NCBI GenBank assembly: GCA_963739395.1
Contig: CAVUAE010000001.1
Coordinates: 1,094,056 to 1,158,055, forward strand
Source: an uncultured Chloroflexia bacterium
GTDB lineage: Bacteria; Chloroflexota; Dehalococcoidia; Dehalococcoidales; RBG-16-60-22
DNA: 64,000 nucleotides
Direction: 5' to 3'
Positions 37,173-60,968 of the stretch are shown one piece after another; positions within the stretch are counted from its first letter, which is position 1, and the number at the start of each line of letters is the position of its first letter. The position numbers were made by a program, and so were the translations under genes. Below the pieces are notes generated by a model. That model was not told the DNA's origin. It did no database searches and saw only the letters and a program-made list of their open reading frames with translations.

Positions 37173-37315
37173 TTTGTGGTAAATGGGGGACAAGGTAGTA
37201 AGGTGGGGTTTTCAGTTAGATATAAAAAGTATAAGTGATTGGCGGTGTAACTCAAACAAGCCAATATAGTATAATAATTACGTCACTTTTTCACGTAAAT
37301 TTCACGGAGGCAATC

Positions 37316-39167: not shown

Positions 39168-40628
39168 CTATCGGCTTAATTTCTGAATAATTTCGCCCTT
39201 ATTATCACGGATAACTACCTCTAAAGGCATCTGACCGGGGAGGGTATGGGTAGCGCAGCCCATGCAGGGGTCATAGGGACGGAAAGCCATTTCCACCATG
39301 TTGAGCAAACCTTCAGAAGCCGGCTGTCCTTTTTTGATTAAGCTCTGGGCGGCTTTCTTAATGGACATGTTCATCGCCGGGTAGTTATGCGCCGAGGCGA
39401 CAATCATGTTGACTTTCTGGATGATGCCATTTTTATCAGTCTTATAATGATGGATGAGAACACCGCGCGGCGCTTCGACAATGCCGATGCCTTCATCTGG
39501 GGTGGCAGTGGGGATAGTACGGACATCGGGACTGGTTATTTCTTTATCACGGCAGAGTTCTAGCAGGCGCTCGGAAGCATAAAGAAGCTCGATGAGTCGC
39601 GCCCAGTGGAAAGCCATGGTGGCGTGAACCGGTTTACCGCCGAGGGTCTTATACATTCTTTCGTATTCCGTCTGGGCTAGCGGCGTCGCCATCCCGTCGG
39701 CGGCGTTAAGGCGGGCTAAAGGACTAACGCGGTAAATGCCGCTGTCTTTACCTTCCACAAAACCTTTCCAGCCGACTTTTTTCAGGAAGGGGAATTTCAT
39801 ATAAGTCCAGGGTTCGGTGTGCTCGGCGATATAGTACAGATACTGGTCGGCTTTGAATTTGACAACTTCTTTGCCATCCTGGTCGACCAGACGTAAAACG
39901 CCGTCGTAAAAATTCACTTTATTTTGAGCGTCCACCAACCCCATATAATAACTTTTCATGGTGTAGATATCGCCGGTGACGAGAGCTAAATATTCTTTAT
40001 TGCTTAAAACGACGTCGTTAAAGAGCTTGAGACTAAACTGGGCAAAGTCCACCAACGATTTGGCTTTATCCTCGAAGTCCTTGCGCTCCTCCTCGTTAAT
40101 CGACTTACTCATGCCGCCGGGAATGCCGCAGACGGGATGGGTAGCTTTGCCGCCGATGGTCGCCTGGATACTTTGAGCGTAAGCGCGATGCTTAATGACC
40201 TCACCGCCTATCTTAAGTCCGACTTTATTCACTACGCCGAGTATATTTCTTTGTGCCGGGTCGCTCATGGGACCGACAACAAAGTCCGGGGCGGAGAGAG
40301 CGTAAAAACAGGCGATATGGGAGTGGATGATATGGGCGCAATAAAACAATTCGCGTAATTTTTTAGCGGTAGGCGGTGGGTCGACATGGTAGACGGCATC
40401 AGTGGTTTTCGCCGAAGCCATGTGGTGCGCGCCGGGGCAGACGCCGCAGATACGGGGCACGATGCGTGGCATTTCTTCCACCGGACGACCCTCGCAGAAT
40501 TTCTCAAAACCGCGTAGTTCCGGTATCTGAAGATAAGCATTTTCCACGTCGCCAGCGGCATTGAGAAATATCTCTATCTTGCCGTGTCCTTCAAGTCGGG
40601 TAATGGGGTCGATGCTAATTTTCACCAT
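39168..40628 (-). CDS. mvhA: [NiFe] hydrogenase large subunit, group 3c (Mvh-type)
   Basis: RLEGHGKI, RICGVCPGAHH, C-terminal DPCMGCATH. Confidence 0.92.
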   Translation of the reverse strand: MVKISIDPITRLEGHGKIEIFLNAAGDVENAYLQIPELRGFEKFCEGRPVEEMPRIVPRICGVCPGAHHMASAKTTDAVYHVDPPPTAKKLRELFYCAHIIHSHIACFYALSAPDFVVGPMSDPAQRNILGVVNKVGLKIGGEVIKHRAYAQSIQATIGGKATHPVCGIPGGMSKSINEEERKDFEDKAKSLVDFAQFSLKLFNDVVLSNKEYLALVTGDIYTMKSYYMGLVDAQNKVNFYDGVLRLVDQDGKEVVKFKADQYLYYIAEHTEPWTYMKFPFLKKVGWKGFVEGKDSGIYRVSPLARLNAADGMATPLAQTEYERMYKTLGGKPVHATMAFHWARLIELLYASERLLELCRDKEITSPDVRTIPTATPDEGIGIVEAPRGVLIHHYKTDKNGIIQKVNMIVASAHNYPAMNMSIKKAAQSLIKKGQPASEGLLNMVEMAFRPYDPCMGCATHTLPGQMPLEVVIRDNKGEIIQKLSR

Positions 40629-40640
40629 ATAATAAATCCT

Positions 40641-41603
40641 TTAGCTCTTAGGGAGTCTTTTTCTCTTTAAGAGTGATTCTGCCATACCAAAGCGGTAGAA
40701 AGTTCCCGCTGGGTCGACCACTTCCTCTAACATTTTATTAATTTCTTCGGGGGTTTCTCCCTGATAGATGGAAGCGATAGCGCTTAACATCTTGGCGCCC
40801 TGGTCGGCAACACCTTCCGGCGGACCGAAACAGCCGCGACAGGGCATATTGGCATTAACACAGCTCATCCCGCAGCCGCCGCGTGTGGCAGGACCGCAAC
40901 AAATAATTCCTTGTTCCAGTAGACATTTCTTGGGGTCGGTGATAATTTCATGGGGGCGATAAAACTTGGTTATCTTCTTATTTTCTTTAATACGGTCGCA
41001 GTCGTCACAGCAGGTTTTGTCGGAAGCAATTATCGAGCCAACTTTTGGTAATTTGCCCGTGGCATAAAGGTCAACCAGCTTTAAAATAAGGGTTACGGGC
41101 GGAGGACAGCCGGGAACATAATATTCCACCGGTACCACCTGCGCCAGTGTCTTTACGGTATCAAATAATTCAGGCAGTTCCAATTCGCCCTCGTTTACTT
41201 TAGTTTCAACCTGCGGTAAGATTTTTTTCTCATTATTGTTGGAAGTGATTTCAATATAAACCCGTTGTAATATATCGTTACGCGTGGTGAAATTTGCCAG
41301 TGCCGGGATGCCGCCGAGGCAGGCGCAAGCGCCGAAAGCTACCAGCACTTTAGATTTTTGGCGTAAGAGTTTGGCGAGTTCTTCCTGTTCGGTGTTGCGG
41401 ATAGCGCCGTTAAACAGGCATAAGTCGATGCTTTTATCCTGCATTTCTCTAATGTGGTGATATTTAAAGTCCATGGCGATGGGCCAGAGGATGACGTCAA
41501 CCAGGTTGGCGATATCCAGTATTTTCTCGTTCGTATCGAGGATAGCCATATCGCAGCCGCCGCAGGAAGCCGCCCAATAGATTGCCAGTTTCGGTTTAGC
41601 CAT
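40641..41603 (-). CDS. mvhG: [NiFe] hydrogenase small subunit (Mvh-type)
   Basis: WAASCGGCD, GACACLGG, and C-terminal Cys clusters. Start at 41603 (MAKPKLAIYW), overlapping the mvhD stop; 41618 is possible. Confidence 0.88.
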   Translation of the reverse strand: MAKPKLAIYWAASCGGCDMAILDTNEKILDIANLVDVILWPIAMDFKYHHIREMQDKSIDLCLFNGAIRNTEQEELAKLLRQKSKVLVAFGACACLGGIPALANFTTRNDILQRVYIEITSNNNEKKILPQVETKVNEGELELPELFDTVKTLAQVVPVEYYVPGCPPPVTLILKLVDLYATGKLPKVGSIIASDKTCCDDCDRIKENKKITKFYRPHEIITDPKKCLLEQGIICCGPATRGGCGMSCVNANMPCRGCFGPPEGVADQGAKMLSAIASIYQGETPEEINKMLEEVVDPAGTFYRFGMAESLLKRKRLPKS

Positions 41604-42018
41604 TGGCGCCGTCTCCATTCCTGTCGAAGGGTCCCAGCTTCCTTACCTGCTCCGTCATTTCATTAACGAGGGCGGCAAAAAGGTCGCCCTCCGAGGCTGA
41701 TATCCATTCCAGACGCACCCTTTCATCTTCAATGCCGAACTGCGCTAGCATTTTCTTGAGGAGGGGCATACGCCGGGCGGTCTTTTTGTTGCCGTCCTGA
41801 TAATGGCAGTCGCCGATATGGCAGCCGCAAACGAGGACACCATCGGCACCCTGCTTAAAAGCTTCTAATATAAATGTTGGCTCAACGCGACCGGAGCACA
41901 TGACGCGTACTATCCGGACGTTAGGAGCATATTTTTTCCGCGATGTGCCAGCGAGGTCAGCCCCGGTATAGGAGCACCAGTTGCAGAGGATACCCACAAT
42001 CTTGGGTTCGAAGCTCAT
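41596..42018 (-). CDS. mvhD: Hydrogenase/heterodisulfide reductase linker subunit MvhD
   Basis: ILCNWCSY, MCSGRV, VCGCHIGDCHY motifs. Confidence 0.9.
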   Translation of the reverse strand: MSFEPKIVGILCNWCSYTGADLAGTSRKKYAPNVRIVRVMCSGRVEPTFILEAFKQGADGVLVCGCHIGDCHYQDGNKKTARRMPLLKKMLAQFGIEDERVRLEWISASEGDLFAALVNEMTEQVRKLGPFDRNGDGANG

Positions 42019-44024
42019 GACAGCACCCCCTCGATTTCCGCCATGATTTCTTCAGTGGTAAAGTGCCTGCCTTTGATGGCGCCGCTGGGGCAAGCTGCGA
42101 CGCAGGTGCCGCAGCCTTTGCAGAGAGCCTCGTTAACTCGGCAGACCTTTTTCTCTTCATCGAAGCTAATGGCTTTATAAGGACAGAGGTCGATACATAT
42201 TTTGCATCCAGAGCATTTTGCCTCGTCGATAACAGCGATGGCGGCTTCAATCTCGACCTTGCCTTTAGCGATTAGTGCCAGCACCCGAGCCGCTGCGGCC
42301 GATGCCTGGGCGACGGTATCCGGGATGTCCTTGGGACTCTGGCAACAGCCGACGATATAAACGCCGTCCGTGGTGGTAGCCACGGGGTCAAGCTTGGGGT
42401 GTTTTTCCAGCAAGAAGCCATCGGCTTTGCGACTCAACGTTAAAATCCTGGCGAGTTGTTCGGTATCGGGGCGGGGCTCAAGAGCGCAACTTAAAATAAC
42501 CATATCTACGGAGAGACGCCGATTACGGCGTACCAGCGTGTCTTCCACCATGACTACCAGCCTGCCTTTTTCTTCGGGAGTTTCAGTTAAATCAGTAACC
42601 TCGGCAGCCTTGCCGCGGATAAAGTTAACCCCTTCCTCCTGTAAGCGCTCGTAGAACTCTTCGTAGCCGGAGCCGGCACAGCGCATATCGATATATAGCT
42701 GGTAAACTGCCGCCTCTGGCAATTTCTCCCGCAATAAATGGGCAAACTTAAGCGAGTACATACAGCATACCCGCGAGCAATATTTATGATAATTAGTATC
42801 GCGGCTGCCGATACAGTGCAGGATAGCGACAGTCTTCGGCTCGGAGCCGTCTTTAAGTACCACCTTGCCGCCGGTGGGACCGGAGGCGTTGGTCAGTCTT
42901 TCGAACTCCAAGCCGGTATAAACATTATTTAAGCGACCGTATCCCAGCTGGTAAATCTTGGCGGGGTCGAACTGTTGGAAACCGGTAGCGACGATAATGT
43001 TGCCGATTTCAATTTCTATAATTTCATCTTTTTGGTCAAAATTAATGGCTTCCGCCTCGCAGCCGAGTTGACCCTGCTTGGGGATGCCTTTTTGACATAA
43101 GCGGCAGACATCTTTCTTGCCTTCAGCCAAGCCTTTAAGGTGACGGCAGTTCTTAGCGTCTATAATAGCTTTATTGGGGACGGCGTAAGGGGAGGGGATA
43201 TAGATAGCCTTGCGCTTGCCCAAGCCGCAGTCGAACTCATTGGGCACGGAGGTGGGGCAAATTTCAGAGCAGCGCCCGCAGCCGGTGCATTTGACCGAAT
43301 CGATATATCTAGCCTTTTTCTTGATTTTAGCCTTGAAGTTGCCGATATAGCCGGATAATTCGACTAGCTCGCTGTAAGCTAATAAGTCAATATTACGATT
43401 TTGTCCGACGCTGGTCATCTTGGGCGTTAGAATACAGGCGGCGCAATCAAGGGTGGGGAAGGTTTTATCGAACATCGCCATATGTCCGCCGATGCTGGCA
43501 TCTTTTTCCAGAAGGTAAACCTTATGACCTGAATCGGCGATTTCTAAAGCCGCCTGAATGCCCGCCACCCCTCCGCCAATGACGAGCGTAGAGGGATTCA
43601 TGGCTACTTCTTTGGTTTCCAGAGGCTCTTGTAAGGCAACGCGGTGGACGGCGGCGCTGACCAGGGCTTTGGCTTTTTCCGTCGCCATATCTTTATCAGT
43701 ATGCACCCAAGAGCACTGCTCGCGGATATTCGCCATTTCAAAAAGGTACTGATTTAAACCGGCATCCTGGCAGGCGCGACGGAAAGTAGGCTCGTGCATC
43801 CGTGGCGAGCAGGAGGCGACGACGACGCGGTTCAAACCCAGTTTTTTAATATCCTCTTTTATCAGGTTCTGGCCGGGGTCGGAGCACATGTATTTATAGT
43901 CGCGCGCAACCGCAACGTTAGGTAGACTGCGGGCGAATTCGGTTACTTTGGAGCAATCGACAATGCCGGCGATATTGCTGCCGCAGTGGCAGATATAAAC
44001 ACCGATTTTTGGCTCCATTTTCAC
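42015..44024 (-). CDS. hdrA: Heterodisulfide reductase subunit A (FAD, multiple Fe-S)
   Basis: VIGGGVAGIQAALEIA FAD motif; ferredoxin motifs CTGCGRCSEICP, CSGCKICIDLCP, CKGCGTCVAACP. Confidence 0.92.
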   Translation of the reverse strand: MKMEPKIGVYICHCGSNIAGIVDCSKVTEFARSLPNVAVARDYKYMCSDPGQNLIKEDIKKLGLNRVVVASCSPRMHEPTFRRACQDAGLNQYLFEMANIREQCSWVHTDKDMATEKAKALVSAAVHRVALQEPLETKEVAMNPSTLVIGGGVAGIQAALEIADSGHKVYLLEKDASIGGHMAMFDKTFPTLDCAACILTPKMTSVGQNRNIDLLAYSELVELSGYIGNFKAKIKKKARYIDSVKCTGCGRCSEICPTSVPNEFDCGLGKRKAIYIPSPYAVPNKAIIDAKNCRHLKGLAEGKKDVCRLCQKGIPKQGQLGCEAEAINFDQKDEIIEIEIGNIIVATGFQQFDPAKIYQLGYGRLNNVYTGLEFERLTNASGPTGGKVVLKDGSEPKTVAILHCIGSRDTNYHKYCSRVCCMYSLKFAHLLREKLPEAAVYQLYIDMRCAGSGYEEFYERLQEEGVNFIRGKAAEVTDLTETPEEKGRLVVMVEDTLVRRNRRLSVDMVILSCALEPRPDTEQLARILTLSRKADGFLLEKHPKLDPVATTTDGVYIVGCCQSPKDIPDTVAQASAAAARVLALIAKGKVEIEAAIAVIDEAKCSGCKICIDLCPYKAISFDEEKKVCRVNEALCKGCGTCVAACPSGAIKGRHFTTEEIMAEIEGVLS

Positions 44025-44027
44025 TCC

Positions 44028-44903
44028 TTAAATAAACTTTGCCAGGGCTTTTTTCACCGGCACGATGCTGGTTTTTAGTCCCAGGTCTTTTTCATCGAGA
44101 CCGAAAGCCACACCCATCAACTGGGTAAAGAACAGGACTGGTAAATGATAATTGGTCTTATATTTCCGGTTTACCATCGCTTGATAAGCATCTACATTCA
44201 GCTGGCATAGCGGGCAGCCGGTAACCATTACTTCCGCCCCGTTACTGACGGCTGATTCCAACAGCTTTTTTATCAACTCCAGCGATGCATCTTCCTCGGA
44301 AATAATGAGAGAACCGCCACAGCAGGCGCTCTTGAACGGGAAGTTCACAGGTGTTGCCCCTAGAGCTCTAACCAGTCTATCCATATACCTGGGGTTTTCA
44401 GGGTGGTCACGTCCGAAAATAGGGCGTACTTCCTGGCAGCCGTAGTAGCAAGCCACTTTTAAATCTGTCAGGCTCTTTTTAACTTTATTCATAACGGCTT
44501 CGTAGCCGACATCATTGACGTAAACATCGAGCACCTTGCGCACTTTGACTTTACCGGTGTAGGTAAGGCCGCCAGCCGCTAAAGCCTCATCTACTTCTTT
44601 TTTTACTTTAGGATACTCATGCAGGTACTGATTGGTGCGACTTAAAAATACGTAGCAGGAACTGCACGGAGCGATTAAATCGCCATTCATTTTCTCCGCC
44701 AGCGCCAGGTTGCGGGCGCAAACGGCAAAGGAAGCCTGTTCGTGAAGGGTATCATAGGGTACGGTGCCGCAACAGTTCCAATCCGGGATTTCCTTGAATT
44801 CTAAATCCAATACCTTATTTACGGCATTAATCGACCAGTCGAATGCCCGGCCGAAGCCTTCAGGAGAGAGGCCGCACCCTGGAAAGTAAGAATACTGTTT
44901 CAC
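44028..44903 (-). CDS. hdrB: Heterodisulfide reductase subunit B (two CCG domains)
   Basis: CCGTVPYD and ACCGGSL CCG motifs, plus YYGCQ. Confidence 0.9.
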   Translation of the reverse strand: MKQYSYFPGCGLSPEGFGRAFDWSINAVNKVLDLEFKEIPDWNCCGTVPYDTLHEQASFAVCARNLALAEKMNGDLIAPCSSCYVFLSRTNQYLHEYPKVKKEVDEALAAGGLTYTGKVKVRKVLDVYVNDVGYEAVMNKVKKSLTDLKVACYYGCQEVRPIFGRDHPENPRYMDRLVRALGATPVNFPFKSACCGGSLIISEEDASLELIKKLLESAVSNGAEVMVTGCPLCQLNVDAYQAMVNRKYKTNYHLPVLFFTQLMGVAFGLDEKDLGLKTSIVPVKKALAKFI

Positions 44904-45466
44904 CAGGTACCTCCGTTAGACTCCGCTTTTTTAATGATAGCCTTAAGTTGCTTGATGCCCTCCGGCTTCATTTTGTCTATTTTTATTGATACACGTTTAT
45001 GCAGGAATAAATTGATGGCTATGGGAAGCATTGTTAGTGCCTTAAATGGATTGGTGCGCAGGTAGTAGCTGACCATCATCCAAAGTTCGGATATTCGCCC
45101 GCCTCTAAGGATAAATCTATTAAAGCCCTTGTACATCCTCGGTGTGGTGGTGTGTTTATTAGTGATATTGCTGCGAGCGGAAAGACTTTCTAAAACATGC
45201 ATCAAACGGGTTATTTTGACATCTCTGGGGCAGCGTACGACACATAAATAGCAGGAAAGGCAGAGCCACATGCTATTGGCGGATAGTACTTTTTCCCGCA
45301 TGCCGGCCCGTGCCATAGCGATGAGGTGAGAAGGGGAATAATCCATCTTATAGGCATTAGGGCAGGAAGCTGTGCAGGTGCCGCACTGGATACATACTTT
45401 TATATCTTCCCCGCCTGGTATCGAGCATATTTCATCGATAAACGTAGCTTTTTTAGCTTCGGGCAT
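44900..45466 (-). CDS. hdrC: Heterodisulfide reductase subunit C (2x[4Fe-4S])
   Basis: CIQCGTCTASCP and CLSCYLCVVRCP. Confidence 0.9.
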   Translation of the reverse strand: MPEAKKATFIDEICSIPGGEDIKVCIQCGTCTASCPNAYKMDYSPSHLIAMARAGMREKVLSANSMWLCLSCYLCVVRCPRDVKITRLMHVLESLSARSNITNKHTTTPRMYKGFNRFILRGGRISELWMMVSYYLRTNPFKALTMLPIAINLFLHKRVSIKIDKMKPEGIKQLKAIIKKAESNGGTW

Positions 45467-45639: not shown

Positions 45640-45668
45640 TTGACCGGAAAATATGCCGATGGTACAAT
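45640..45668 (+). promoter_or_regulatory. Sigma70-like promoter of the moaD-like/selenoprotein unit
   Basis: TTGACC (45640-45645) - 17 nt - TACAAT (45663-45668). Confidence 0.5.
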
Positions 45669-45694: not shown

Positions 45695-45976
45695 ATGTTT
45701 AAAGTCGTGATACCGATGTACGGTCTACGCCGCGAAATTACGGAAAAACGCGAGGTTGAAGTAGAACTGCGCGATGGGGCGACGATGTCGGAGGTAATCG
45801 CGGCGATGAAAAAGCAAATACCTTCCTTGGAAGGGCCGGTTATCCGCCGCGGTGAAAACCGCCTCGTCGAGCAGTACAAATTTAACGTCAATGGTAAATT
45901 TTACTTCGATGGTCAGGATTTCGAATTGCATAAGGGCGACCGCATTGCGTTACTGGTGCCTATGACCGGCGGATAA
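45695..45976 (+). CDS. MoaD/ThiS-family ubiquitin-like sulfur carrier
   Basis: 93 aa ending ...RIALLVPMTGG (C-terminal Gly-Gly). Confidence 0.8.
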   Translation: MFKVVIPMYGLRREITEKREVEVELRDGATMSEVIAAMKKQIPSLEGPVIRRGENRLVEQYKFNVNGKFYFDGQDFELHKGDRIALLVPMTGG

Positions 45977-46025
45977 ATTTCATCATTTAATAATTTAAGT
46001 TTAGTGTCTACTAAAGGAGTATATT

Positions 46026-47711
46026 ATGGCGGAAAATAAGTTAACCCCTACTTACGAAGTGCTAAGTCCCTGGGCGGAAGCCGACCCCATTCCACTAAAA
46101 GGTCTTTCACCACGACTGGATAAACTGGACGGCAAGAAAATCGGCTTACTATGTAATAATAAGCGCGCCGCCCCTCTTATTCTTGATGTGACGGAAGCGC
46201 TAATTAAAGAAAAATTCCCCACCGCCAAGATTAGTAAATTCTTCGCCCGTTCATTCTCCGTGTCCTCTCTAGAAAAGGACAGGGAAGGGGAGTTTGACGA
46301 CTGGCTCAAGGGAGTGGATGCGGTTATCGCCGCCGTGGGCGACTGAGGGGCATGTACCAAGTACCTTGTGTACGACGCAATTTATATCGAGGCTAAAGGC
46401 AAACCCACAGCAACCTATGTCTTCGAACATTTTCATAACGACGCCATGTCCGCGGCATCCAGTAAAGGCATGCCGGTAATTAGAGTTGTGCCGGAGAACA
46501 TCGTCTCCGAGTCCACCGTCGAAGAGGATATCGAAGCCGCCGTTAAAAAAGCATTTAGTAACGTCCTCGCTGTTTTAACCAAACCGTTGACCGACGAGGA
46601 AAAAGCGCCCAAGCGCCGCGAACCGGAGAATCCGCCACGCCTTATTTTCAAGGGCACCCTAGCGGAGATTAACAGGTTTTTCTACCAGCGAGGCTGGACA
46701 GATGGTCTCCCCATTATCCCTCCCACCGAAGAAGCTGTTGCCGAAATGATGACCGGCACCGACCTTCCCGCCGACCACCTGGTAGAAAAGCTGGAACCAC
46801 GCTTGGGCAAAGCCACGGTTGAGAAAATAGCTATAAATGCCGTTATGGCGGGCTGTCTGCCGACCTATATACCATTACTCATCGCTGGCGTACAGGCTTT
46901 AGCGTCAAACCCTGTCTGCGGTATGATGGCAGCCAGCACCGGCTCATTCTCGCCCTTCTGGTTTATTAATGGGCCTATCGCTAAAGATATCAACCTCCGT
47001 TCGACCTATGGCGCCGCCAGTCCGGGTGATATCGCAAATGCTTCCTTCGGGCGGGCGATGGGTTTAATAACAAAAAACATCCGCGGCATCCGCAAGCAAA
47101 TCGAGGATATGGGCGTCCTGGGTAATCCCGGCAAGTACTCCTTTGTAACAGCGGAAAACGAGGAAAACAGCCCCTGGGAGCCTTTTCATGTCGAGCGGGG
47201 CTTTAAGAAAGAAGACAGCACCCTTTCCCTGATGTTCCCGCAGTCTTACCAGCAGATGATGCCCTTCGGTACGGACGCTAAAGGCATACTGGCGACCGTA
47301 GTTGGAAGTCTTGTGCCGGCGCGTATGGGTGCTTTCGGTTTACTGCTAACCCCCACCAACGCCGGTTCACTGGCTAAAGATGGCTGGAGTAAGAAAAAGG
47401 TTAAAGAGTATATCATTAAAAACGCCGTCGTGCCCGAGGGTTATTATAAAAGGCTCGGTCTGGACGACAGCAAACCTTTCGACCGTGGTAATGTAGTGAT
47501 AACCGGCGCGGCAAATAAAGATGCTATTCTAGTGCCCAACCCACGCGACCCCGACCCCGTGCAGATTTTTGTTTACGGCGGCTTTGGCTCATGGATGGGC
47601 TTATTGCAGGGCGGTCCCCCACCGATTACTAAAAAGGTAGAGCTACCGAAGAACTGGGCGCAGCTCGTTAAAAAATACAAAAACGTCGTGCCTAATTACT
47701 TAAGATACTAA
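46026..47711 (+). CDS. Putative selenoprotein (UxxC motif): ORFs 46026-46346 and 46368-47711 joined through in-frame TGA 46344-46346
   Basis: The two ORFs share one frame, separated by TGA plus 7 sense codons. Readthrough gives ...VDAVIAAVGD-U-GACTKYLVYDAIYIE.... The downstream ORF has no RBS. A candidate hairpin lies at 46354-46373. Sec use is shown by fdhA in this window. Confidence 0.6.
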
Positions 47712-47760
47712 GTTTACAGCCTAAATACATAGCTAAAAAGAGAGGGAACGTCCCCCTTTT

Positions 47761-49026
47761 TCAGTGTTGGCTTTCTATCCAGGCTGTGATGTCATCGACT
47801 ACGGTCTTGGCGACATTGCCGGGCTGCTGATATTCCGAAGGGGTTGATTTACCAGTGCCGCTGATGAAAAGATGGTTGAGGTCGGGGTATGTTTTATAGG
47901 TGATATTTTTCTTCTCCTTTAGGCCGTCGACCCACGCGTTGAAGTCCTTCATAGTAACCTGATAATCTCTTTCTCCTTGAAGGATGAACATTGGCACGGC
48001 TAAACTCATAGCTGTAGCGATTACGTTATATTCCGCCAGGTCCTCCCAGTAAGCTTTACCCGCCCCCATAACAACCTCGCCTTCTCTGATATCCAGCTCT
48101 TTAATTTTTTTTACTTGTTGTTCGATGGCTTTAATCTGTACGGCTACGCTAGTGTTGGGTGTCCCGGCCAGAGAAGCCAGGTAGTTATATTGGTCCAAGA
48201 TAGCGTCGCCTAGATTTCTCGTAAGTCCGGCGAGGATAATTAAACCTTTAATCCGGCCGTCTTGAGAGGCGATTCTGGGGGCAAGCATGGCACCCAGACT
48301 GTGCCCCAGGACGTAGATACGCTGGGTATCGATCCCTTTGGTTTCAGCAAGCAGAGTAACACCAGCCAGTGCGTCGTCAATGGTCTCTTCTTGCACAGTC
48401 AGAGAATTGATAGTAGCGGCTGTTTCTTGAGGATATTGCTTGGTCCTTTTTTCATAACGGAGTACAGCGATGTTCCTGGAAGCCAAGCCCCAGGCAAGGT
48501 CCTTGAAGGGCTTATTAGCGCCCACAGTCTCATCCCTGTCATTGGGACCGGAGCCGTGCACCAGTACTATAGCCGAGAAGGGTCCTTCACCTTTAGGCAT
48601 GGATAACGTCGCTGGTAAAAGCCATTTACCAGTTCCGATAGTAACCTCGGTTTCGGTAAACAAGTCGGCATCAGCATACTCAGGAGGGCTGTAGTTTGGT
48701 GCAGCACTTGAGGGCCGGAAAAACAAACCGGCTATTTTCTTTTCGGCATTGTAGGTTAGCTGAATATCGAGCGCTGCTTTGCCAAATTTGCAGGTGACAA
48801 ATACCAGTGCAGAGTCATTCATTTGACTGGTTCTGGTACCGATAACATTCTCGAAAGTGCCTACTTGAGAAATTATGGCATTCCATATCTCTTGAAGCTT
48901 AGCAGGTGGTACTTGTTCTGACATGGTTTTGTCAAAGAATTCTACCGCCTTCTCGAATTGTTTTTTCACTACAAGGTTCACCCATTCTACAGCCTGTTGT
49001 TCCAGCTGGTTCAAATTATTCTTCAT
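47761..49026 (-). CDS. Alpha/beta hydrolase with N-terminal helical domain
   Basis: VLGHSLGA nucleophile elbow, HGSGPNDRDE, C-terminal DLNHLF. Confidence 0.8.
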   Translation of the reverse strand: MKNNLNQLEQQAVEWVNLVVKKQFEKAVEFFDKTMSEQVPPAKLQEIWNAIISQVGTFENVIGTRTSQMNDSALVFVTCKFGKAALDIQLTYNAEKKIAGLFFRPSSAAPNYSPPEYADADLFTETEVTIGTGKWLLPATLSMPKGEGPFSAIVLVHGSGPNDRDETVGANKPFKDLAWGLASRNIAVLRYEKRTKQYPQETAATINSLTVQEETIDDALAGVTLLAETKGIDTQRIYVLGHSLGAMLAPRIASQDGRIKGLIILAGLTRNLGDAILDQYNYLASLAGTPNTSVAVQIKAIEQQVKKIKELDIREGEVVMGAGKAYWEDLAEYNVIATAMSLAVPMFILQGERDYQVTMKDFNAWVDGLKEKKNITYKTYPDLNHLFISGTGKSTPSEYQQPGNVAKTVVDDITAWIESQH

Positions 49027-51166: not shown

Positions 51167-52417
51167 TTAAGTTCGATTTAAAACTTGAAAGCCATTTCCT
51201 CGAGGAAGATAGTTTAATTCAAATGAACTTGGTAAAGGATTTTGAGCATTGTTATTCCTAATACAAAACAGTTGCCACCACAGTGTTTGATTCGAATCAT
51301 TGGGATTGATATTTTTCTTTTGAATTATTTGGTGCCATATAACAACGCCACTCACTAAGGGTGCGGATTTTAGAGCTTGAGCTATACTTTGACCGAGATT
51401 GAAAAACTGATTTAGACCGTAGAAATCGGGCGTGTATAAATAAATCACAGCAGGAGAGTTTTGTGTCAATTGTTTACGTGCATCATTAATAAGGTCATAT
51501 ATGGCATTAACATGATCAGGGGTTATTTCAAAATGTACGACAACAACTTTAGGATTTCGGTAATAAATTAAACCATTACGATTTTCCTTGTGACATTTAT
51601 GGCATATTCCTACATAAGTAGTTTGATTACCTACACCACAATTAATCATAAAATTCCTAATTGGCTCAGGAACATGTTCTTCTGGACCGAAAGGTTCGAA
51701 TGCGGTTGTTACTATATCTTTATCGTTAGGTAAGAGAATAGTTGTTTCAACTTCGAAGCTACCAATAGAACAAGAAAAAGCCTCACCTTTTAGTAATAAT
51801 GCCTCTATACTTCTCACAAGATTAGGGATGACAGTTTTATTTGGTATTTGTTTTGTTGATATATATATCCCGTAATTAGTAGTTGAGTGGTCTAATAAGG
51901 AACTAACAAGGGAAATTATTTCTGAACGCATATCATCAATCAGAATAAATTGTGGTGTTATAATGTTTCTTGCTTTACATTCGATATATGCAGGAAGTCC
52001 TCCAATAGATATTTCAAAGTCAGGCGTGGCTGATTTACCAGCTTTTAATGAAATAATGGGTTGTTTTAGTATATTTACGTAAGACCAAGCAACTGTTGCT
52101 TCTATTTCCGTAGCACAAAATTCCGCAATGGATTGTTTTGACCGTTTTATAAGTTGGTTAAAGAAGACATCATCGGTGATAACTTTTCCATCTGAACGAC
52201 GAGTCGGAAAATTAGATAATTCTCGCATAATCTTGGAGAAACTCAAAGCCCTTACTATATCTTGATTTACACTCGGATCTTTAGACGCATATAGAGCGCG
52301 TTTTAAGGGATGCATTTTTTCTTTGCAGTTATTGTTCCACTGTGGACCAAGCTGTACTTTCAGCCATTTTAAGAGAGTATTTACATCGGCATTTTCAGTA
52401 TCAATTAAGTAGTTCAT
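51167..52417 (-). CDS. AT-rich orphan protein with a PD-(D/E)xK nuclease-like motif
   Basis: 416 aa. E(x)n...TPDFEISIGGLPAYIECKARN fits the E...PD...ExK pattern. The rest is unrecognisable. Flanked by AT-rich non-coding DNA. Confidence 0.5.
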   Translation of the reverse strand: MNYLIDTENADVNTLLKWLKVQLGPQWNNNCKEKMHPLKRALYASKDPSVNQDIVRALSFSKIMRELSNFPTRRSDGKVITDDVFFNQLIKRSKQSIAEFCATEIEATVAWSYVNILKQPIISLKAGKSATPDFEISIGGLPAYIECKARNIITPQFILIDDMRSEIISLVSSLLDHSTTNYGIYISTKQIPNKTVIPNLVRSIEALLLKGEAFSCSIGSFEVETTILLPNDKDIVTTAFEPFGPEEHVPEPIRNFMINCGVGNQTTYVGICHKCHKENRNGLIYYRNPKVVVVHFEITPDHVNAIYDLINDARKQLTQNSPAVIYLYTPDFYGLNQFFNLGQSIAQALKSAPLVSGVVIWHQIIQKKNINPNDSNQTLWWQLFCIRNNNAQNPLPSSFELNYLPRGNGFQVLNRT

Positions 52418-52639
52418 TAATATCTATTTTATATGGTAAAAAATAAAAAATAAATATGATTTTCTCATCTTCCTTATGATTTTTTAGTAGTTAACTTAAA
52501 TAATTAAAATTTTCTCATCAGGGTAAAAACATTCTAGCAGTGTACTTCAGTGGGTGCAAGAGAAACGTTCTTATCACGAAAAGCTAGATTGGCTTGCGGT
52601 AAAAGTCGGTATAGTTTAAAATGTTAGCATAATTGAATA

Positions 52640-52740
52640 TTGCCACTAGGGGAGCTGAATGGCTGAGAGTTCCCCCGATGAAGTCGGGGGACTGACCCTT
52701 TGAACCTGAACTCGGTAATGCGAGCGTAGGGAAGTGAAAA
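52640..52740 (+). promoter_or_regulatory. TPP (THI-box) riboswitch aptamer
   Basis: CACTAGGGGAGC...GGCTGAGAG...ACCCTTTGAACCTGAACTCGGTAATGCGAGCGTAGGGAAGTG matches the conserved THI-box core. Confidence 0.88.
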
Positions 52741-52742
52741 CC

Positions 52743-52785
52743 AAAACCAGAAGTAGGTTCCCCTTAAGCTTCTGGTTTTAATATT
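52743..52785 (+). terminator. Riboswitch expression-platform terminator
   Basis: AAAACCAGAAG...CTTCTGGTTTT stem, then TAATATTTTT. RBS AGGAGG and ATG 52802 follow. Confidence 0.7.
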
Positions 52786-52801: not shown

Positions 52802-53863
52802 ATGGCTGACATGCCGGAAATAGGTAAAATATCCCCGGAAATTTTTAGCGAGTTAATTTATCCGCGGCTGGGCGCGAAAAGCAAAAACATCTTGGTGGGA
52901 CCGCAGCATGGCGTGGATGTAGGCATTGCGGAAATAGGGGGCAAGGCGGTATCATTCACCACCGACCCCGTTTTTATCGTGCCGGAATATGGTTGGGAGA
53001 GAGCCGCCTGGTTTGCTATCCATATCATTGCGTCGGACTCCGTTACCAGCGGGCTTAAGCCTAAGTTCTTAAGCATCGACCTTAACCTGCCGATGGAGAT
53101 GACGAAAAAACAGCTGGAGATAACTTGGGATATCATTCACCGCGAGTGTGAAAAAATGGGGATAGCGGTAATCACCGGTCATACCGCCCGCTATGAAGGT
53201 TGCCATTATCCGATGGTCGGGGGCGCTACTCTTATTGGCGTTGGTGAACTTGATGAATACGTTACCCCTAAATTCTGTAAAGCCGGCGACAAAATAATCA
53301 TTACCAAAGGTCCGGCCATCGAAGCGACTGGCATTTTTGCCGCGATGTTACCTGGTGTCATTACCGAAAAATATGGTACGGAGCTTAACCATAAAGCTCA
53401 ACAGGTCTTTTATAAAATGACCGTCGTCGAGGACGCCATAACCGCGGTCAGTGTTGGCGTTCGGGATAAGGGTGTTACTGCCATGCACGACGCTACCGAG
53501 TGTGGCATTTGGGGCGGATTATACGAAATCGCTCAAGCCTCGGGGTTAGGCGTGAGGGTGGAAAAAGAAAAAATCGTGGTTGAGGAATCAGTCGAAGAGG
53601 TTTGTCGTTTATTCGGCATCGACCCTTATGCCTCTATCAGCGAAGGTACATTGATAATTGCCTGCAAAGAACGTAAAGCTGCGTCGGTAATCGAAGCGCT
53701 GACGCAAAAGGGCATTAAATCATCAATCGTCGGCAAGCTGACGCAATCGGACAAAGGCATGGTGTTAGTAGAAAACGGTAAAGAAAAGAAGCTGGAACAC
53801 CCCATTGTTGACCCGTTCTGGCGGGCTTTCTACGGGGCGCTGGAGAAATATAAGACCACTTAA
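52802..53863 (+). CDS. PurM/HypE/ThiL-superfamily (AIR-synthase-related) protein under TPP control
   Basis: GVDVGIAEIGGKAVSFTTDPVFIVP and AVITGHTARY resemble the HypE/ThiL N-domain ATP-binding pattern. Sits directly behind the TPP riboswitch. Confidence 0.7.
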   Translation: MADMPEIGKISPEIFSELIYPRLGAKSKNILVGPQHGVDVGIAEIGGKAVSFTTDPVFIVPEYGWERAAWFAIHIIASDSVTSGLKPKFLSIDLNLPMEMTKKQLEITWDIIHRECEKMGIAVITGHTARYEGCHYPMVGGATLIGVGELDEYVTPKFCKAGDKIIITKGPAIEATGIFAAMLPGVITEKYGTELNHKAQQVFYKMTVVEDAITAVSVGVRDKGVTAMHDATECGIWGGLYEIAQASGLGVRVEKEKIVVEESVEEVCRLFGIDPYASISEGTLIIACKERKAASVIEALTQKGIKSSIVGKLTQSDKGMVLVENGKEKKLEHPIVDPFWRAFYGALEKYKTT

Positions 53864-54007: not shown

Positions 54008-54090
54008 AAACAGGGCGCAATGAGATAAAAGTCATTTCCATTAGCCTCGGCATAAGATTATGCTTATAATGAGTGTTGGAGAAAGTATGT

Positions 54091-55275
54091 ATGAACAAAG
54101 TATATTTGGATAATACTGCCGGCGCGCCCGTTCTCCCGGAAGTTAAACAGGCGATGTTGCCTTATTTTGGAGAAATTTTTGGCAACCCCCAGTCTTTACA
54201 TGATTGGGGTGATACGGCGCGGCAAGCTGTGGATAATGCGCGGGAAAAGGTAGCCAGTCTTATCGGCGCCAGTCCTGAGGAAATTATATTTACCAGCGGC
54301 GGCACCGAGAGCAATAATCTAGCTGTTAAAGGTATTGCATTGGCTCAGCAGTCTAAGGGCAAACATGTGGTGGTCTCCGCAATAGAACATTTTTCAGTCC
54401 TGCACTCTGCCAGAACGTTAGAAAAATGGGGCTTCGAGGTTACCGAGGTACCGGTAGATAAATACGGCGTCGTCAATCCCGATGATGTGAAGAAAAGTAT
54501 TAGAAAAGATACCGTTCTGGTTTCTATCATGCACGCCAACGGCGAGATAGGCACCATTGAGCCGATTAAAGAAATCGCGGCCATCACCCGGGAAATGAAA
54601 ATCTCTTTACATACAGACGCCGTTGCGACCGCGGGGACAATACCAGTCAACGTTAACGATCTTGACGTGGACGCTTTAAGCTTGGCCGGCAACCAGTTCT
54701 TCGGCCCTAAAGGAACCGGCGCTTTGTGGGTGCGCAAGGGTTTGAGGCTGATGCCTCTCCTCGATGGCGGTATACAAGAAGGTGGGCGTCGGGGTGGCAC
54801 TGAAAATGTGCCGGGCATTGTCGGATTGGGTGTAGCGGCGGAAATCGCGGCGGCGCAAATGCAGTCCCGGATAAACCAGCTGACGCCTATGCGCGACTAT
54901 TTACTCGATGAGTTGCCGCGCCGGGTCGGGCATGTGGTAGTCACCGGTCATCAGCAGAATCGTTTGCCAGGGCATGCCAGCTTTTGTGTGGAGTTCATCG
55001 AGGGGGAAGCCATGCTGATGCTCTTAAACAGCAAAGGCATCGCCGTTTCCAGCGGTTCAGCCTGCACCTCGCGGGCGCTTAAGGCGTCCCATGTGCTTAT
55101 AGCGTTAGGTCTTTCTCATGAAATTGCCCAGGGCTCGATACTCTTTACCCTGGGGTTGGATAACACTAAAGTAGATATTGAATATGTTCTGGAGACCATG
55201 CCACCAGTCGTTGACAGGCTGCGGAAAATGTCTCCGCTCTATGATAAATACGTAAAAGCTGACAAAGGAGGATAA
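54091..55275 (+). CDS. nifS: Cysteine desulfurase (NifS/IscS type)
   Basis: [26 protein letters not shown], catalytic SSGSACTS. Start at ATG 54091. Confidence 0.92.
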
Positions 55276-60452: not shown

Positions 60453-60968
60453 ATGAGCGTTAAAGAAGACAGTACAAGCACGAAAATAGCCAGTCTGCCG
60501 GATGAAAAAGATATTACGGATGCCGTAGCTAAGGTACTGTCATCTTATAAAGGAGAAAAAGCCGAATTAATCCCTATCCTGCAGCAGGTGCAGCAGAAGC
60601 TAGGTTATTTGCCGCTAGTGGCAATGAAAAGTATCTCCAGTTTTGTCAGAATGCCGGAAAGCACCGTCTTCGGTGTGGCAACGTTCTACGCCCAGTTCAA
60701 ATTCAAGCCTGTGGGACGCAACATTATTAAGGTCTGCCGCGGCACGGGCTGCTATGTCAAAGGGTCGCCGCGTATCCTCGAGGAATTTGAAAAACAGCTT
60801 GGCATTAAAGACGGCGGCACCACCAAGGACATGGAATATTCACTGGAAACAGTCGCTTGCTTTGGTTCTTGCGCCCTGGCGCCCGTCGTCGTCGTTAATG
60901 ATAGGGTGTACGGTCGCATGACGCCGGAAAAAGCCAGGGAGCTGATTAAGGTCAAGGGGACGGCATGA
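60453..60968 (+). CDS. nuoE: NuoE/HndA-like [2Fe-2S] subunit
   Basis: CRGTGCYVKG ... CFGSCALAP cluster motifs. Confidence 0.88.
   Translation: MSVKEDSTSTKIASLPDEKDITDAVAKVLSSYKGEKAELIPILQQVQQKLGYLPLVAMKSISSFVRMPESTVFGVATFYAQFKFKPVGRNIIKVCRGTGCYVKGSPRILEEFEKQLGIKDGGTTKDMEYSLETVACFGSCALAPVVVVNDRVYGRMTPEKARELIKVKGTA

What the first reader, a model, noticed from the sequence alone, without database searches (positions are those of the whole stretch)
45695..47711. Hidden UxxC selenoprotein: two ORFs are one gene read through TGA 46344, behind a MoaD/ThiS-like gene
ORFs 46026-46346 and 46368-47711 share one frame and are separated only by TGA plus GGG GCA TGT ACC AAG TAC CTT. Readthrough gives ...KGVDAVIAAVGD-U-GACTKYLVYDAIYIEAKGKP..., a U-x-x-C redox motif at the end of a beta-strand-like segment.

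Supporting observations:
- The downstream ORF has no RBS, and its start is an internal GTG.
- A hairpin candidate GTACCAAG-tac-CTTG(T)GTAC with a bulged T begins 8 nt after the UGA.
- Sec decoding is independently shown by fdhA in this window.

The N-terminal 115 aa recall what I remember as the UGSC (seleno)protein family. Here they are fused to a 440-aa domain of unknown function (GWTDGLPIIPPTEEAV...). The gene is preceded by a Gly-Gly sulfur-carrier gene under a TTGACC/TACAAT promoter. This is a possible new thiol/selenol redox or sulfur/selenium-transfer module.
Basis: partly seen in the sequence, partly recalled or inferred. Interest (0 to 1): 0.65.

Follow-up and report, generated by a model that had tools for sequence, protein, structure and literature searches.

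The report
Split UGSC-family selenoprotein gene, misannotated
The two ORFs are one 561-codon gene whose in-frame TGA encodes selenocysteine: it belongs to the already described UGSC selenoprotein family, fused to a widespread domain of unknown function, and public gene calls truncate it.

Summary
ORFs 46026-46346 and 46368-47711 share a frame and are separated by TGA 46344 plus seven sense codons.

One Pfam UGSC domain (PF24696, E 2.4e-27) runs across the TGA, covering residues 12-185. All 68 related gene copies recovered (four phyla, 31-88% identity around the site) have TGA at this column. Full-length homologues have Cys there (CGSC/CGAC) or, more often, Ala. The codons just after the TGA show the strongest synonymous-site suppression in the part of the gene examined (p = 9e-6), as expected for a SECIS. 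fdhA in the window carries a classical Sec TGA.

- The UGSC domain is about 175 aa, not 115. The unknown C-terminal domain is about 355 aa, not 440.
- The proposed hairpin register is not the best fit.
- The MoaD-like gene is real but accompanies the gene in only about a third of loci.
- UGSC selenoproteins, and a UGSC fusion, were described in 2008.

New here:
- The C-terminal domain has no Pfam family and no convincing PDB fold relative.
- It is the regular partner of UGSC, either fused or adjacent. A thioredoxin-reductase-like gene lies beside some of the adjacent pairs.

Function remains inferred. This is a new member of a known kind, of moderate interest.

The parts
45640..45668 (+). Promoter-like site TTGACC - 17 nt - TACAAT, with TG before the -10 hexamer
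   Evidence: 10 of 12 consensus matches. This is a consensus match only. It lies in the intergenic region shared with the divergent hdrC gene.
45695..45976 (+). MoaD/ThiS-family small beta-grasp protein, 93 aa, C-terminal ...PMTGG
   Evidence: PF02597 E 1e-10. TIGR01687 MoaD_arch scores 44.6 bits and SAMP1 43.5 bits, both below their cut-offs. Orthologues at 66-91% identity, all ending in GG, occur in 17 related loci besides the window: 16 upstream on the same strand, 1 downstream on the opposite strand.
46014..46019 (+). Shine-Dalgarno-like AAGGAG, 6 nt before ATG 46026
   Evidence: Read directly.
46026..47711 (+). Single selenoprotein gene: 561 codons plus TAA stop, with Sec at codon 107
   Evidence: Searches give the frame. 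One search shows the UGSC domain spanning the TGA. Searches show full-length homologues of about 560 aa without a stop. Searches show the TGA conserved in 68 of 68 copies.
46059..46580 (+). UGSC domain (residues 12-185), a flavodoxin-like alternating beta-alpha fold
   Evidence: PF24696 scores 96.6 bits against a cut-off of 25. The AlphaFold2 model of the CGSC homologue P0126 has pLDDT 86 and pTM 0.85. It shows a beta-alpha-beta-alpha-beta-alpha-beta-alpha-beta-alpha order, with the first Cys between strand 153-159 and helix 162-177. Foldseek gives weak hits to flavodoxin-like folds.
46344..46346 (+). TGA encoding selenocysteine 107, first residue of the motif U-G-A-C
   Evidence: TGA at this column in 68 of 68 gene copies. 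Cys occupies the column in 12 full-length homologues, 10 of them as CxxC, and in the stand-alone CGSC protein of L062.
46353..46355 (+). Cys110, second residue of the U-x-x-C motif
   Evidence: Cys in 87% of 147 full-length homologues. It is retained in the AGSC subfamily, which lacks the first Cys/Sec.
46353..46373 (+). SECIS candidate at +10 to +30 from the U of UGA; core ACCAAGUACCUUGUGUAC at 46356-46373
   Evidence: Third-position entropy is 0-0.38 bits here against about 0.7-1.7 in the flanks. Normalised codon entropy is 0.16 in the 9 codons after UGA against 0.71 elsewhere (Mann-Whitney p = 9e-6), and the six codons T-K-Y-L-V-Y are the lowest six-codon stretch in the roughly 480 codons examined. 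Three overlapping hairpin models were counted.
46638..47708 (+). C-terminal domain of unknown function (residues 205-561), with conserved GWTDGLPIIPPT, ATVEKIAINAVMAGC, NGPI and ENEE-SPWEP motifs
   Evidence: No Pfam or NCBIfam hit. No PDB sequence hit. The AlphaFold2 model has pLDDT 91.8 and pTM 0.92. The best Foldseek PDB hit has E 9.7e-4 and TM 0.28. 4697 cluster representatives match at E <= 0.001, including stand-alone proteins of about 350 aa.
46854..46856 (+). Cys277 in the NAVMAGC motif of the C-terminal domain
   Evidence: Cys in 97% of 147 full-length homologues and nearly invariant in alignments A2 and A3.
47741..47757 (.). G+C-rich hairpin with T/A runs on both sides, between the convergent genes
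   Evidence: One search lists it as terminator-like on the minus strand. On the plus strand the same stem is followed by TTTTTC.

Best explanation
Positions 46026-47711 are one gene for a 561-residue selenoprotein.

Shown:
- TGA 46344 lies inside a single UGSC-family domain (residues 12-185).
- It aligns with Cys in uninterrupted homologues and is TGA in every close and distant Sec-type relative recovered.
- It is followed by the most synonymously constrained stretch in the part of the gene examined, which can form a short hairpin.
- The same organism decodes a classical fdhA TGA.

Inferred decoding: SelB with Sec-tRNA reads the UGA, guided by a compact SECIS at about +10 to +30.

Anatomy: Sec107 and Cys110 sit at the junction of a beta-strand and the N-terminus of a helix in a flavodoxin-like domain, which is the geometry of a redox-active selenol/thiol pair. 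This domain is fused to a roughly 355-residue domain with no described family and one nearly invariant Cys (C277).

Inferred function:
- The UGSC domain is the redox (selenenylsulfide/selenol-thiol) module serving the C-terminal catalytic domain.
- The two act as one enzyme on a small imported or catabolic substrate.
- In genomes where they are separate adjacent genes, a thioredoxin-reductase-like flavoprotein recharges the module.

The MoaD-like protein upstream is an optional accessory.
For: - Frame and read-through.
- UGSC Pfam domain continuous over the TGA (96.6 bits, residues 12-185).
- All 120 best database hits are 413-451 aa 'hypothetical proteins' (mostly 445-447 aa) that start just after the TGA, so they are truncated calls.
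- Full-length fusions of about 560 aa exist with CGSC or CGAC at the motif (for example P0126 and P0258).
- TGA at the same codon in 68 of 68 copies from Dehalococcoidales, Acidobacteriota, Desulfobacterota and Thermodesulfobacteriota MAGs, at 31-88% identity over the 140 residues around the site.
- Synonymous suppression after the TGA.
- Hairpin models are 89.5-100% paired.
- A clade-specific longer hairpin is 96.9% paired in the Acidobacteriota/Desulfobacterota copies.
- fdhA Sec codon with a GUGGCC-GGUCU-GGCCAC hairpin.
- The first Cys of the homologue sits at a strand/helix junction.
- UGSC and the C-domain occur as adjacent separate genes in L061, L062-64, L068 and the contig of P0264, often with the stand-alone UGSC itself split by an in-frame stop.
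- A Pyr_redox_2 (TrxR-like) gene lies next to them in L060/L062-64 and L061.
Against: - No protein-level evidence exists.
- The local RNA fold is no more stable than shuffled sequence (z-scores 0.18 and -0.01).
- The hairpin is weak in the majority sequence (about -2 kcal/mol for models 1 and 2; -5.7 kcal/mol for its whole minimum-energy fold, which contains model 3).
- The element is almost invariant, so covariation cannot choose a structure. Only one compensatory change was seen.
- selA, selB, selD and tRNA-Sec are not in the window, so the Sec machinery is inferred from fdhA alone.
- The NCBIfam UGSC equivalog score (79.6 bits) is below its cut-off of 125.
- In most full-length homologues recovered (107 of 147) the U column is Ala, not Cys. 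The first position is therefore dispensable in a sister subfamily, and a simple dithiol relay is not universal.
- There is no TrxR-like gene next to this gene in the window. Neighbours vary between loci.
- The substrate is unknown.
Confidence: 0.9

Rival explanations
1. There are two real genes. TGA 46344 terminates a 106-aa protein, and a separate 447-aa protein starts at GTG 46368.
For: This is how every public gene call seen treats it. The top 120 hits are 413-451 aa, mostly 445-447 aa. Called genes in L001 and L002 are a 106-119 aa UGSC fragment plus a 445-aa protein. UGSC and the C-domain do exist as separate genes in other organisms.
Against: - The break would cut a single Pfam domain at residue 107 of about 175.
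- Genuine two-gene versions split after the full UGSC domain.
- There is no Shine-Dalgarno site at a usable distance from the GTG.
- Uninterrupted homologues carry Cys or Ala at the column.
- The stop is always TGA, never TAA or TAG, in 68 copies.
- Synonymous constraint sits immediately downstream.
Confidence: 0.03
2. The gene is a pseudogene or carries an assembly error: a Cys codon TGC/TGT mutated or was miscalled to TGA.
For: A single-base change from TGY gives TGA. The window is a single sequence of unknown quality.
Against: The same TGA is present in 57 independent assemblies and 68 gene copies. Both halves are otherwise intact and conserved.
Confidence: 0.01
3. The UGA is read through, but as another amino acid (Trp, Cys or Gly by near-cognate or reassigned decoding), not as selenocysteine.
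For: No direct chemical evidence for selenium exists here. The Sec machinery genes are not in the window.
Against: - The rest of the window uses TGA as an ordinary stop. A scan for in-frame TGAs with at least 60 open codons on each side found only this site with a coding-like context.
- fdhA has the textbook Sec site.
- The family is a described selenoprotein family (PMC2398784; NF041046).
- The column is Cys in homologues.
- A constrained RNA element follows the UGA.
Confidence: 0.03
4. The gene works with the MoaD/ThiS-like protein as a sulfur or selenium transfer module. The carrier's C-terminal thiocarboxylate would be loaded or unloaded at the U-x-x-C site.
For: A MoaD-like gene ending in GG lies directly upstream under a shared promoter-like site. 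Orthologues occur in 17 other loci: 16 upstream on the same strand as a UGSC-fusion gene, immediately before it or separated by SDR, NTF2-like or opposite-strand transporter genes, and 1 downstream on the opposite strand.
Against: - It is absent from about two thirds of the loci, including all Acidobacteriota and Desulfobacterota ones and several Dehalococcoidales ones with ample upstream sequence.
- No E1-like activating enzyme was seen among the conserved neighbours.
- The stand-alone UGSC/C-domain pairs come with TrxR-like genes rather than MoaD-like ones.
Confidence: 0.15

Closest known systems
UGSC-containing selenoprotein family (Zhang & Gladyshev 2008, PMC2398784; Pfam PF24696; NCBIfam NF041046 'UGSC family (seleno)protein')
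   Same: The domain is homologous. It has a U-G-x-C motif with Sec/Cys alternation. It occurs in uncultured aquatic and sediment bacteria. Its function is unknown, with a redox role presumed.
   Different: - The motif here is U-G-A-C rather than U-G-S-C.
- The protein is a 561-aa fusion, not a stand-alone protein of about 150-200 aa.
- The NCBIfam score is below its equivalog cut-off.
- The predicted fold is flavodoxin-like, not the thioredoxin-like fold suggested in 2008.
'UGSC/Unknown_1' fusion selenoprotein reported from Global Ocean Sampling reads (PMC2398784, Figure S1A)
   Same: A UGSC selenoprotein is fused to a conserved domain of unknown function that also exists as a separate protein.
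   Different: I could not verify that Unknown_1 is this C-terminal domain. The figure panel is an image and the stored sequence file is cut. The GOS reads were fragments. Here the full 561-aa architecture, its phyletic spread and its neighbours are defined.
Other bacterial UxxC selenoproteins: thioredoxin-like and peroxiredoxin-like proteins, and GrdB/PrdB of glycine and proline reductase
   Same: Sec is the first residue of a U-x-x-C pair at the start of a helix. A thioredoxin-reductase-type partner gene lies nearby in some genomes.
   Different: There is no sequence similarity to those families at E <= 1. The fold is not a thioredoxin fold. The catalytic partner domain is unrelated to anything described.
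Classical bacterial SECIS, as in fdhF/fdhA
   Same: The element lies immediately 3' of the UGA inside the coding sequence. It is a short hairpin whose loop falls at about +19 to +26, as in the window's own fdhA, where the loop is at +22 to +26.
   Different: It is much weaker and A/U-richer than the fdhA hairpin: the whole 42-nt region folds at -5.7 to -9.2 kcal/mol against -12.7 for the fdhA region, and the individual hairpin models are worth -1.7 to -6.4 kcal/mol. Its register is ambiguous. The Acidobacteriota/Desulfobacterota orthologues use a longer hairpin of different shape.

Membership tests
UGSC family (Pfam PF24696) | Match to the family HMM above the gathering score | tested here: met
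   96.6 bits against a cut-off of 25, E 2.4e-27, residues 12-185 on profile positions 2-171 of 172. All 81 aligned relatives also match.
UGSC family (NCBIfam NF041046, equivalog) | Score at or above the curated equivalog cut-off of 125 bits | tested here: not met
   79.6 bits, E 2.3e-22. It is homologous, but NCBI's rule would not name it, which fits its 'hypothetical protein' labels.
UGSC family | U/C-G-S-C motif with Sec or Cys at the first position | tested here: met
   The window has U-G-A-C, a Ser-to-Ala variant. Relatives have U-G-A-C, U-G-S-C or U-G-G-C. Cys forms are CGSC, CGAC, CGNC or CGTC.
UGSC family | Stand-alone small protein of about 150-200 aa | tested here: not met
   Here it is fused to a 355-aa domain. 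Stand-alone forms exist next to the separate C-domain gene elsewhere.
Bacterial selenoprotein gene | In-frame TGA conserved among orthologues | tested here: met
   68 of 68 copies in 57 loci from four phyla.
Bacterial selenoprotein gene | Cys-containing homologues aligned at the Sec column | tested here: met
   12 of 147 full-length homologues have Cys at the column, 10 of them as CxxC; 107 have Ala. The stand-alone L062 protein has CGSCTKYLVY.
Bacterial selenoprotein gene | SECIS hairpin just downstream of the UGA | tested here: inconclusive
   Sequence constraint beyond coding is strong. Hairpins are possible. However, stability matches shuffled sequence, only one compensatory change was seen, and no Rfam family matched.
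Bacterial selenoprotein gene | Sec-decoding machinery in the same genome (selA, selB, selD, tRNA-Sec) | not testable with these tools
   None of these lies in the 64-kb window; the tRNAs found are Leu, Cys and Lys. Indirect support comes from the canonical fdhA Sec codon at 63916.
Bacterial selenoprotein gene | Selenium in the protein product | not testable with these tools
   This needs 75Se labelling or mass spectrometry.
MoaD/ThiS sulfur-carrier family (upstream gene 45695-45976) | ThiS-family beta-grasp domain ending in Gly-Gly | tested here: met
   PF02597 scores 42.4 bits against a cut-off of 22.5. The C-terminus is ...PMTGG, and the GG is conserved in all 17 orthologues.
MoaD/ThiS sulfur-carrier family | Assignment to a specific subfamily (MoaD, archaeal MoaD, SAMP1 or ThiS) above the curated cut-offs | tested here: not met
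   TIGR01687 scores 44.6 against 49.5, SAMP1 43.5 against 60, TIGR01682 19.1 against 66, and ThiS 13.7 against 37.
MoaD/ThiS sulfur-carrier family | Cognate E1-like adenylating enzyme encoded nearby | tested here: not met
   No such family appears among the conserved neighbours of the 58 loci or next to the gene in the window.
Thioredoxin-fold oxidoreductases | Thioredoxin fold carrying the CxxC/UxxC motif | tested here: not met
   The model shows a five-fold alternating beta-alpha order. Foldseek hits are flavodoxin-like: SsuE, the flavodiiron flavodoxin domain and lumazine synthase. They are weak, at E about 1e-3.

The most novel reading that the evidence does not exclude
UGSC plus the unnamed 355-residue domain would form a previously unrecognised two-part enzyme.
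- It is found fused or adjacent in thousands of bacterial and archaeal genomes.
- Its active site would combine a selenol/thiol pair on a flavodoxin-like module with the invariant Cys277 of a new-fold catalytic domain.
- It would be recharged by a thioredoxin-reductase-like flavoprotein, and in Dehalococcoidales perhaps by other reductants.
- It would act on a substrate brought in by the Opp-type transporters so often encoded beside it.
- In some lineages it would recruit a MoaD-like carrier.

This would give the abundant but function-less UGSC selenoprotein family its first biochemical context.
Probability: 0.3. Interest if true: 0.6.

Novelty: new member of a known kind. Interest (0 to 1): 0.38.

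Why it matters
- **Annotation.** Every public call of this gene seen here is cut in two at the Sec codon and labelled hypothetical. Selenoproteome counts for Dehalococcoidales and relatives therefore miss it, often twice per genome because of tandem paralogues.
- **Biology.** UGSC is among the most abundant selenoprotein families in aquatic metagenomes (PMC2398784) and still has no function. This work shows it is regularly fused to, or encoded next to, one particular uncharacterised domain, sometimes with a TrxR-like gene. That gives a concrete, testable partner and a candidate electron donor.
- **Structure.** The partner domain has no Pfam model and no convincing PDB fold relative. It is a reasonable target for structure determination and enzymology.

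None of this would surprise a selenoprotein specialist.

Tried and rejected
- **Rfam.** A scan of the whole window found no SECIS or other family at the site.
- **Thermodynamics.** Folding of 46344-46410 and 46320-46440 gave z-scores of 0.18 and -0.01, so stability alone gives no support.
- **RNAalifold.** On the Dehalococcoidales set it returned only the 4-bp GUAC/GUAC helix.
- **Covariation.** Counts cannot discriminate the three hairpin registers because the element is nearly invariant.
- **C-terminal domain searches.**
  - Pfam, NCBIfam and PDB sequence searches gave nothing, whether with a single sequence, a profile, or 81 members scanned one by one.
  - One profile gave a single hit to a putative Asp/Glu racemase at E 0.63. 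The second profile did not reproduce it and no Pfam racemase hit appeared, so I rejected it.
  - Foldseek hits for the C-domain (class I fumarate hydratase, cyanuric acid hydrolase 'Toblerone' fold, chorismate mutase) have TM 0.28 or below and rmsd above 12 A. I treated them as not meaningful.
- **The 2008 fusion.** I tried to confirm that the 'Unknown_1' domain is this one. The figure panel is an image and the stored sequence supplement is truncated.
- **Source names.** For Cys-form and stand-alone relatives all names were 'hypothetical protein' or absent.
- **Query restriction.** I used the 454 residues after the TGA instead.
Full report
**Observation.**
ORF 46026-46346 (ATG, 106 aa, AAGGAG 6 nt upstream) ends in TGA 46344-46346. 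ORF 46368-47711 (GTG, 447 aa) is in the same frame, 21 nt further on. Translating 46026-47711 straight through gives 561 codons with one stop...KGVDAVIAAVGD*GACTKYLVYDAIYIEAKGKP....

The upstream ORF 45695-45976 is a ThiS/MoaD-family protein ending in GG (PF02597, E 1e-10). It scores below the cut-offs of the specific MoaD, SAMP1 and ThiS models. It follows a TTGACC-17-TACAAT site at 45640-45668.

**Is it one gene?**
With Cys substituted for the stop, Pfam's UGSC model (PF24696) matches residues 12-185 as one stretch covering profile positions 2-171 of 172 (96.6 bits, E 2.4e-27). The TGA thus lies in the middle of a single domain.

The 120 best database relatives of the fused sequence are all 413-451 aa 'hypothetical proteins' (mostly 445-447 aa) from Dehalococcoidales and Chloroflexi MAGs. 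They cover only the 80% of the query after the TGA, so gene callers have cut them at the same place. In two such contigs the called genes are a 106-119 aa UGSC fragment followed 21 nt later by the 445-aa protein, with the same TGA.

An exhaustive search with the 454 residues after the TGA found 4697 cluster representatives. Many are proteins of about 530-620 aa whose match begins at about residue 100-115, so they are uninterrupted fusions. Aligned, these carry Cys at the U column in CGSC, CGAC, CGNC or CGTC motifs. Examples are P0126 GDCGSCTKFLVYN and P0258 ADCGACTSWLIHD.

**Conservation of the TGA.**
A scan of one genome per species returned 57 loci. They come from Dehalococcoidales, Acidobacteriota, Desulfobacteraceae/Desulfatiglandales and a Thermodesulfobacteriota MAG. 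tblastn over the junction found 68 gene copies, 11 of them tandem paralogues. Every one has an in-frame stop at the U column, in VGD-*-G[ASG]CTK[YF]L, at 31-88% identity over the 140 residues around the site. In every case the codon is TGA. This excludes a pseudogene or a sequencing error, and it makes an ordinary stop very unlikely.

**SECIS.**
The region does not fold better than shuffled sequence (z-scores 0.18 and -0.01), and Rfam has no match. The nucleotide sequence after the TGA is nevertheless constrained beyond what coding requires.
- In 51 Dehalococcoidales-type copies, third-position entropy is 0-0.38 bits for codons +13 to +30 (ACC AAG TAC CTT GTG TAC). It is about 0.7-1.7 bits on either side.
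- Over 46 copies and 169 columns with a conserved amino acid, normalised codon entropy is 0.16 in the nine codons after the TGA and 0.71 elsewhere (Mann-Whitney p = 9e-6).
- T-K-Y-L-V-Y is the lowest six-codon stretch in the roughly 480 codons examined.

Three overlapping hairpins fit these bases.

| Model | Pairs (numbered from the U of UGA) | Cells paired | Notes |
|---|---|---|---|
| 2 | GUAC 18-21 with GUAC 27-30, loop CUUGU | 100% | One compensatory C-G to U-A change (L026) |
| 3 | 10-14 and 16-18 with 22-29, bulged C15 | 98.5% | The C/U variation at position 12 stays paired with G27 |

- Model 2 puts the loop at +22 to +26, exactly where the loop of the window's fdhA hairpin lies.
- In the window, model 1 is worth -6.4 kcal/mol and model 2 -2.2 kcal/mol.
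- In the majority sequence, models 1 and 2 are near -2 kcal/mol, and the minimum-energy fold, which contains model 3, is -5.7 kcal/mol.

The element is too invariant for covariation to decide between them. The Acidobacteriota/Desulfobacterota orthologues instead have a longer hairpin, 10-25 with 45-58, that is 96.9% paired.

**Sec decoding in this organism.**
The ORF starting at 62878 is an FdhA N-terminus. It runs into TGA 63916 in ...[29 protein letters not shown]. A GUGGCC-GGUCU-GGCCAC hairpin follows. selA, selB, selD and tRNA-Sec are not in the window.

**Anatomy of the protein.**
AlphaFold2 on the CGSC homologue P0126, with 81 aligned relatives, gave pLDDT 86 and pTM 0.85.
- The UGSC domain alternates strand and helix five times.
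- The first Cys (C161, equivalent to U107) lies between strand 153-159 and helix 162-177.
- Foldseek hits for this part are weak and flavodoxin-like: SsuE, lumazine synthase and the flavodoxin domain of flavodiiron proteins, at E about 1e-3. They are not thioredoxin-like, contrary to the 2008 suggestion.

The UGSC domain ends near residue 185, so the uncharacterised part is residues 205-561 (46638-47708). Modelled alone from the window sequence, it is very confident (pLDDT 91.8, pTM 0.92). Its best PDB fold match is nevertheless E 9.7e-4 with TM 0.28 and rmsd 16 A, a class I fumarate hydratase, which I do not regard as meaningful.

No Pfam, NCBIfam or PDB sequence match exists for this part. 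Conserved motifs are GWTDGLPIIPPT, ATVEKIAINAVMAGC, NGPI, IGRA and ENEE-SPWEP. Cys277 is Cys in 97% of full-length homologues, and Cys110 in 87%.

**The U column in relatives.**
Of 147 full-length fusions aligned, 107 have Ala (AGSC), 12 have Cys (10 of them as CxxC), and the rest vary. Sec-forms are under-represented in this set because they are split in the databases. The AGSC subfamily has four further conserved Cys in the C-domain, aligned to A303, V374, V426 and F437 of the window protein. It may use a different redox centre.

**Context.**
In the window the MoaD-like gene and the selenoprotein gene are transcribed away from an hdrCBA-mvhDGA cluster (39168-45466, minus strand). An alpha/beta hydrolase lies downstream on the opposite strand, followed by marR and a band-7 gene.

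Across 58 loci (57 plus the window) the recurrent neighbours are:
- an Opp-type ABC transporter, in 22 loci;
- a short-chain dehydrogenase, in 22;
- the MoaD-like gene, in 18 (17 upstream on the same strand, including the window, and 1 downstream on the opposite strand);
- an unnamed 142-aa family, in 18;
- band-7, in 11;
- an NTF2-like protein, in 10;
- marR, in 8;
- a second Sec-containing paralogue in tandem, in at least 10.

The MoaD-like gene is missing from all Acidobacteriota and Desulfobacterota loci and from many Dehalococcoidales ones. It is an optional companion.

**Rosetta-stone evidence.**
Stand-alone C-domain proteins of about 350 aa are common. In four of five independent contexts examined, a stand-alone UGSC gene is adjacent:
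- L061, where the UGSC gene is itself interrupted by an in-frame stop...AIGD*GSCVSC...;
- L062-64, which encode a Cys form...AIGDCGSCTKYLVY...;
- L068;
- the contig of P0264.

The fifth context (L069) has amidohydrolases instead. A thioredoxin-reductase-like Pyr_redox_2 gene lies beside the stand-alone genes in L060/L062-64, immediately downstream of the C-domain gene, and in L061, one gene further along on the opposite strand. Opp-type transporter or binding-protein genes also flank the fusion in an unrelated 4.2-Mb genome and in L068.

These separate-gene versions do not rescue the 'two genes' reading for the window. Their boundary falls after the whole UGSC domain, not at the U codon.

**Mechanism.**
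Shown: one reading frame, one domain across the TGA, a conserved TGA, Cys homologues, a constrained RNA element, and Sec use by fdhA.

Inferred: SelB-dependent insertion of Sec107. Sec107 and Cys110 would form a selenenylsulfide/selenol-thiol couple on a flavodoxin-like module. That module would serve the C-terminal domain (Cys277), with external re-reduction by a TrxR-like enzyme where one is encoded. The substrate would be a small imported or catabolic compound.

Confidence is about 0.9 or higher for the gene model and Sec, about 0.4 for the redox-module role, and about 0.15 for a MoaD-linked sulfur or selenium transfer.

**Comparison with what is known.**
[quoted passage not shown] The same paper mentions a UGSC fusion to a conserved 'Unknown_1' domain that also occurs alone (PMC2398784). 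Later reviews list the family as uncharacterised (PMC9312934, PMC13188914). Dehalococcoidia are among the selenoprotein-rich bacteria (PMC13326102).

I could not confirm that Unknown_1 is this domain, though it seems likely. The finding is therefore a correct detection of a misannotated member of a known selenoprotein family. What this work adds is the full architecture, the partner relationship, the fold assignment and the SECIS constraint.

**Verdict.**
It is a new member of a known kind, of moderate interest.

Noticed in passing
window 62878-64000 (+): The FdhA N-terminus runs into in-frame TGA 63916-63918 (...[17 protein letters not shown]...). A GUGGCC-GGUCU-GGCCAC hairpin follows at +16 to +32. 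The gene continues past the end of the window and sits downstream of NuoF-like and NuoE-like genes (60453-62881).
   Followed up: partly
window 39168-45466 (-): An hdrC-hdrB-hdrA-mvhD-mvhG-mvhA cluster is transcribed divergently from the MoaD-like/selenoprotein pair. A tungsten-type aldehyde:ferredoxin oxidoreductase gene lies at 37235-39163 (+). Whether Hdr could be the reductant for the selenoprotein was not tested.
   Followed up: no
L007, L015, L023, L029, L031, L035, L037, L040, L055, L057 (for example L035:2860-4524): Many genomes carry a second, more divergent copy of the UGSC-fusion gene 2-3 kb upstream (42-55% identity to the window over the 140 residues around the Sec site). It too has TGA at the U column and the same conserved bases after it.
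   Followed up: partly
proteins P0131, P0136, P0271 and about 100 others (alignment): A large 'AGSC' subfamily of full-length fusions has Ala in place of Sec/Cys. It has four extra conserved cysteines in the C-terminal domain, aligned to window residues A303, V374, V426 and F437. These may form an Fe-S or other redox centre.
   Followed up: no
protein P0126: This CGSC-form homologue has a 55-residue N-terminal extension with a twin-arginine-like SRRSFFRDL motif, so some family members may be exported.
   Followed up: no
L028:10305-11336: A third, distant UGSC-fusion paralogue (about 31% identity) has TGA at the same column. It has a clear 7-bp G+C-rich hairpin with a GUG loop at +25 to +27 (MFE -10 kcal/mol). 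Its SECIS shape differs from that of the main clade.
   Followed up: partly
L051:7195-9597 and flanks: In a Desulfatiglandales genome, two tandem UGSC-fusion selenoprotein genes are flanked by alpha/beta hydrolases/esterases and a glycyl-radical (PFL-like) enzyme. An alpha/beta hydrolase also follows the gene in the window (47761-49026, minus strand).
   Followed up: no
window 52638-52749 (+): A TPP riboswitch (72.3 bits) lies ahead of ORF 52802-53863. A class-V aminotransferase/cysteine desulfurase-like gene lies at 54073-55275.
   Followed up: no
window 6058-8229 (-) and 51167-52417 (-): Two long ORFs (723 aa and 416 aa) have no Pfam match at E <= 1e-5.
   Followed up: no
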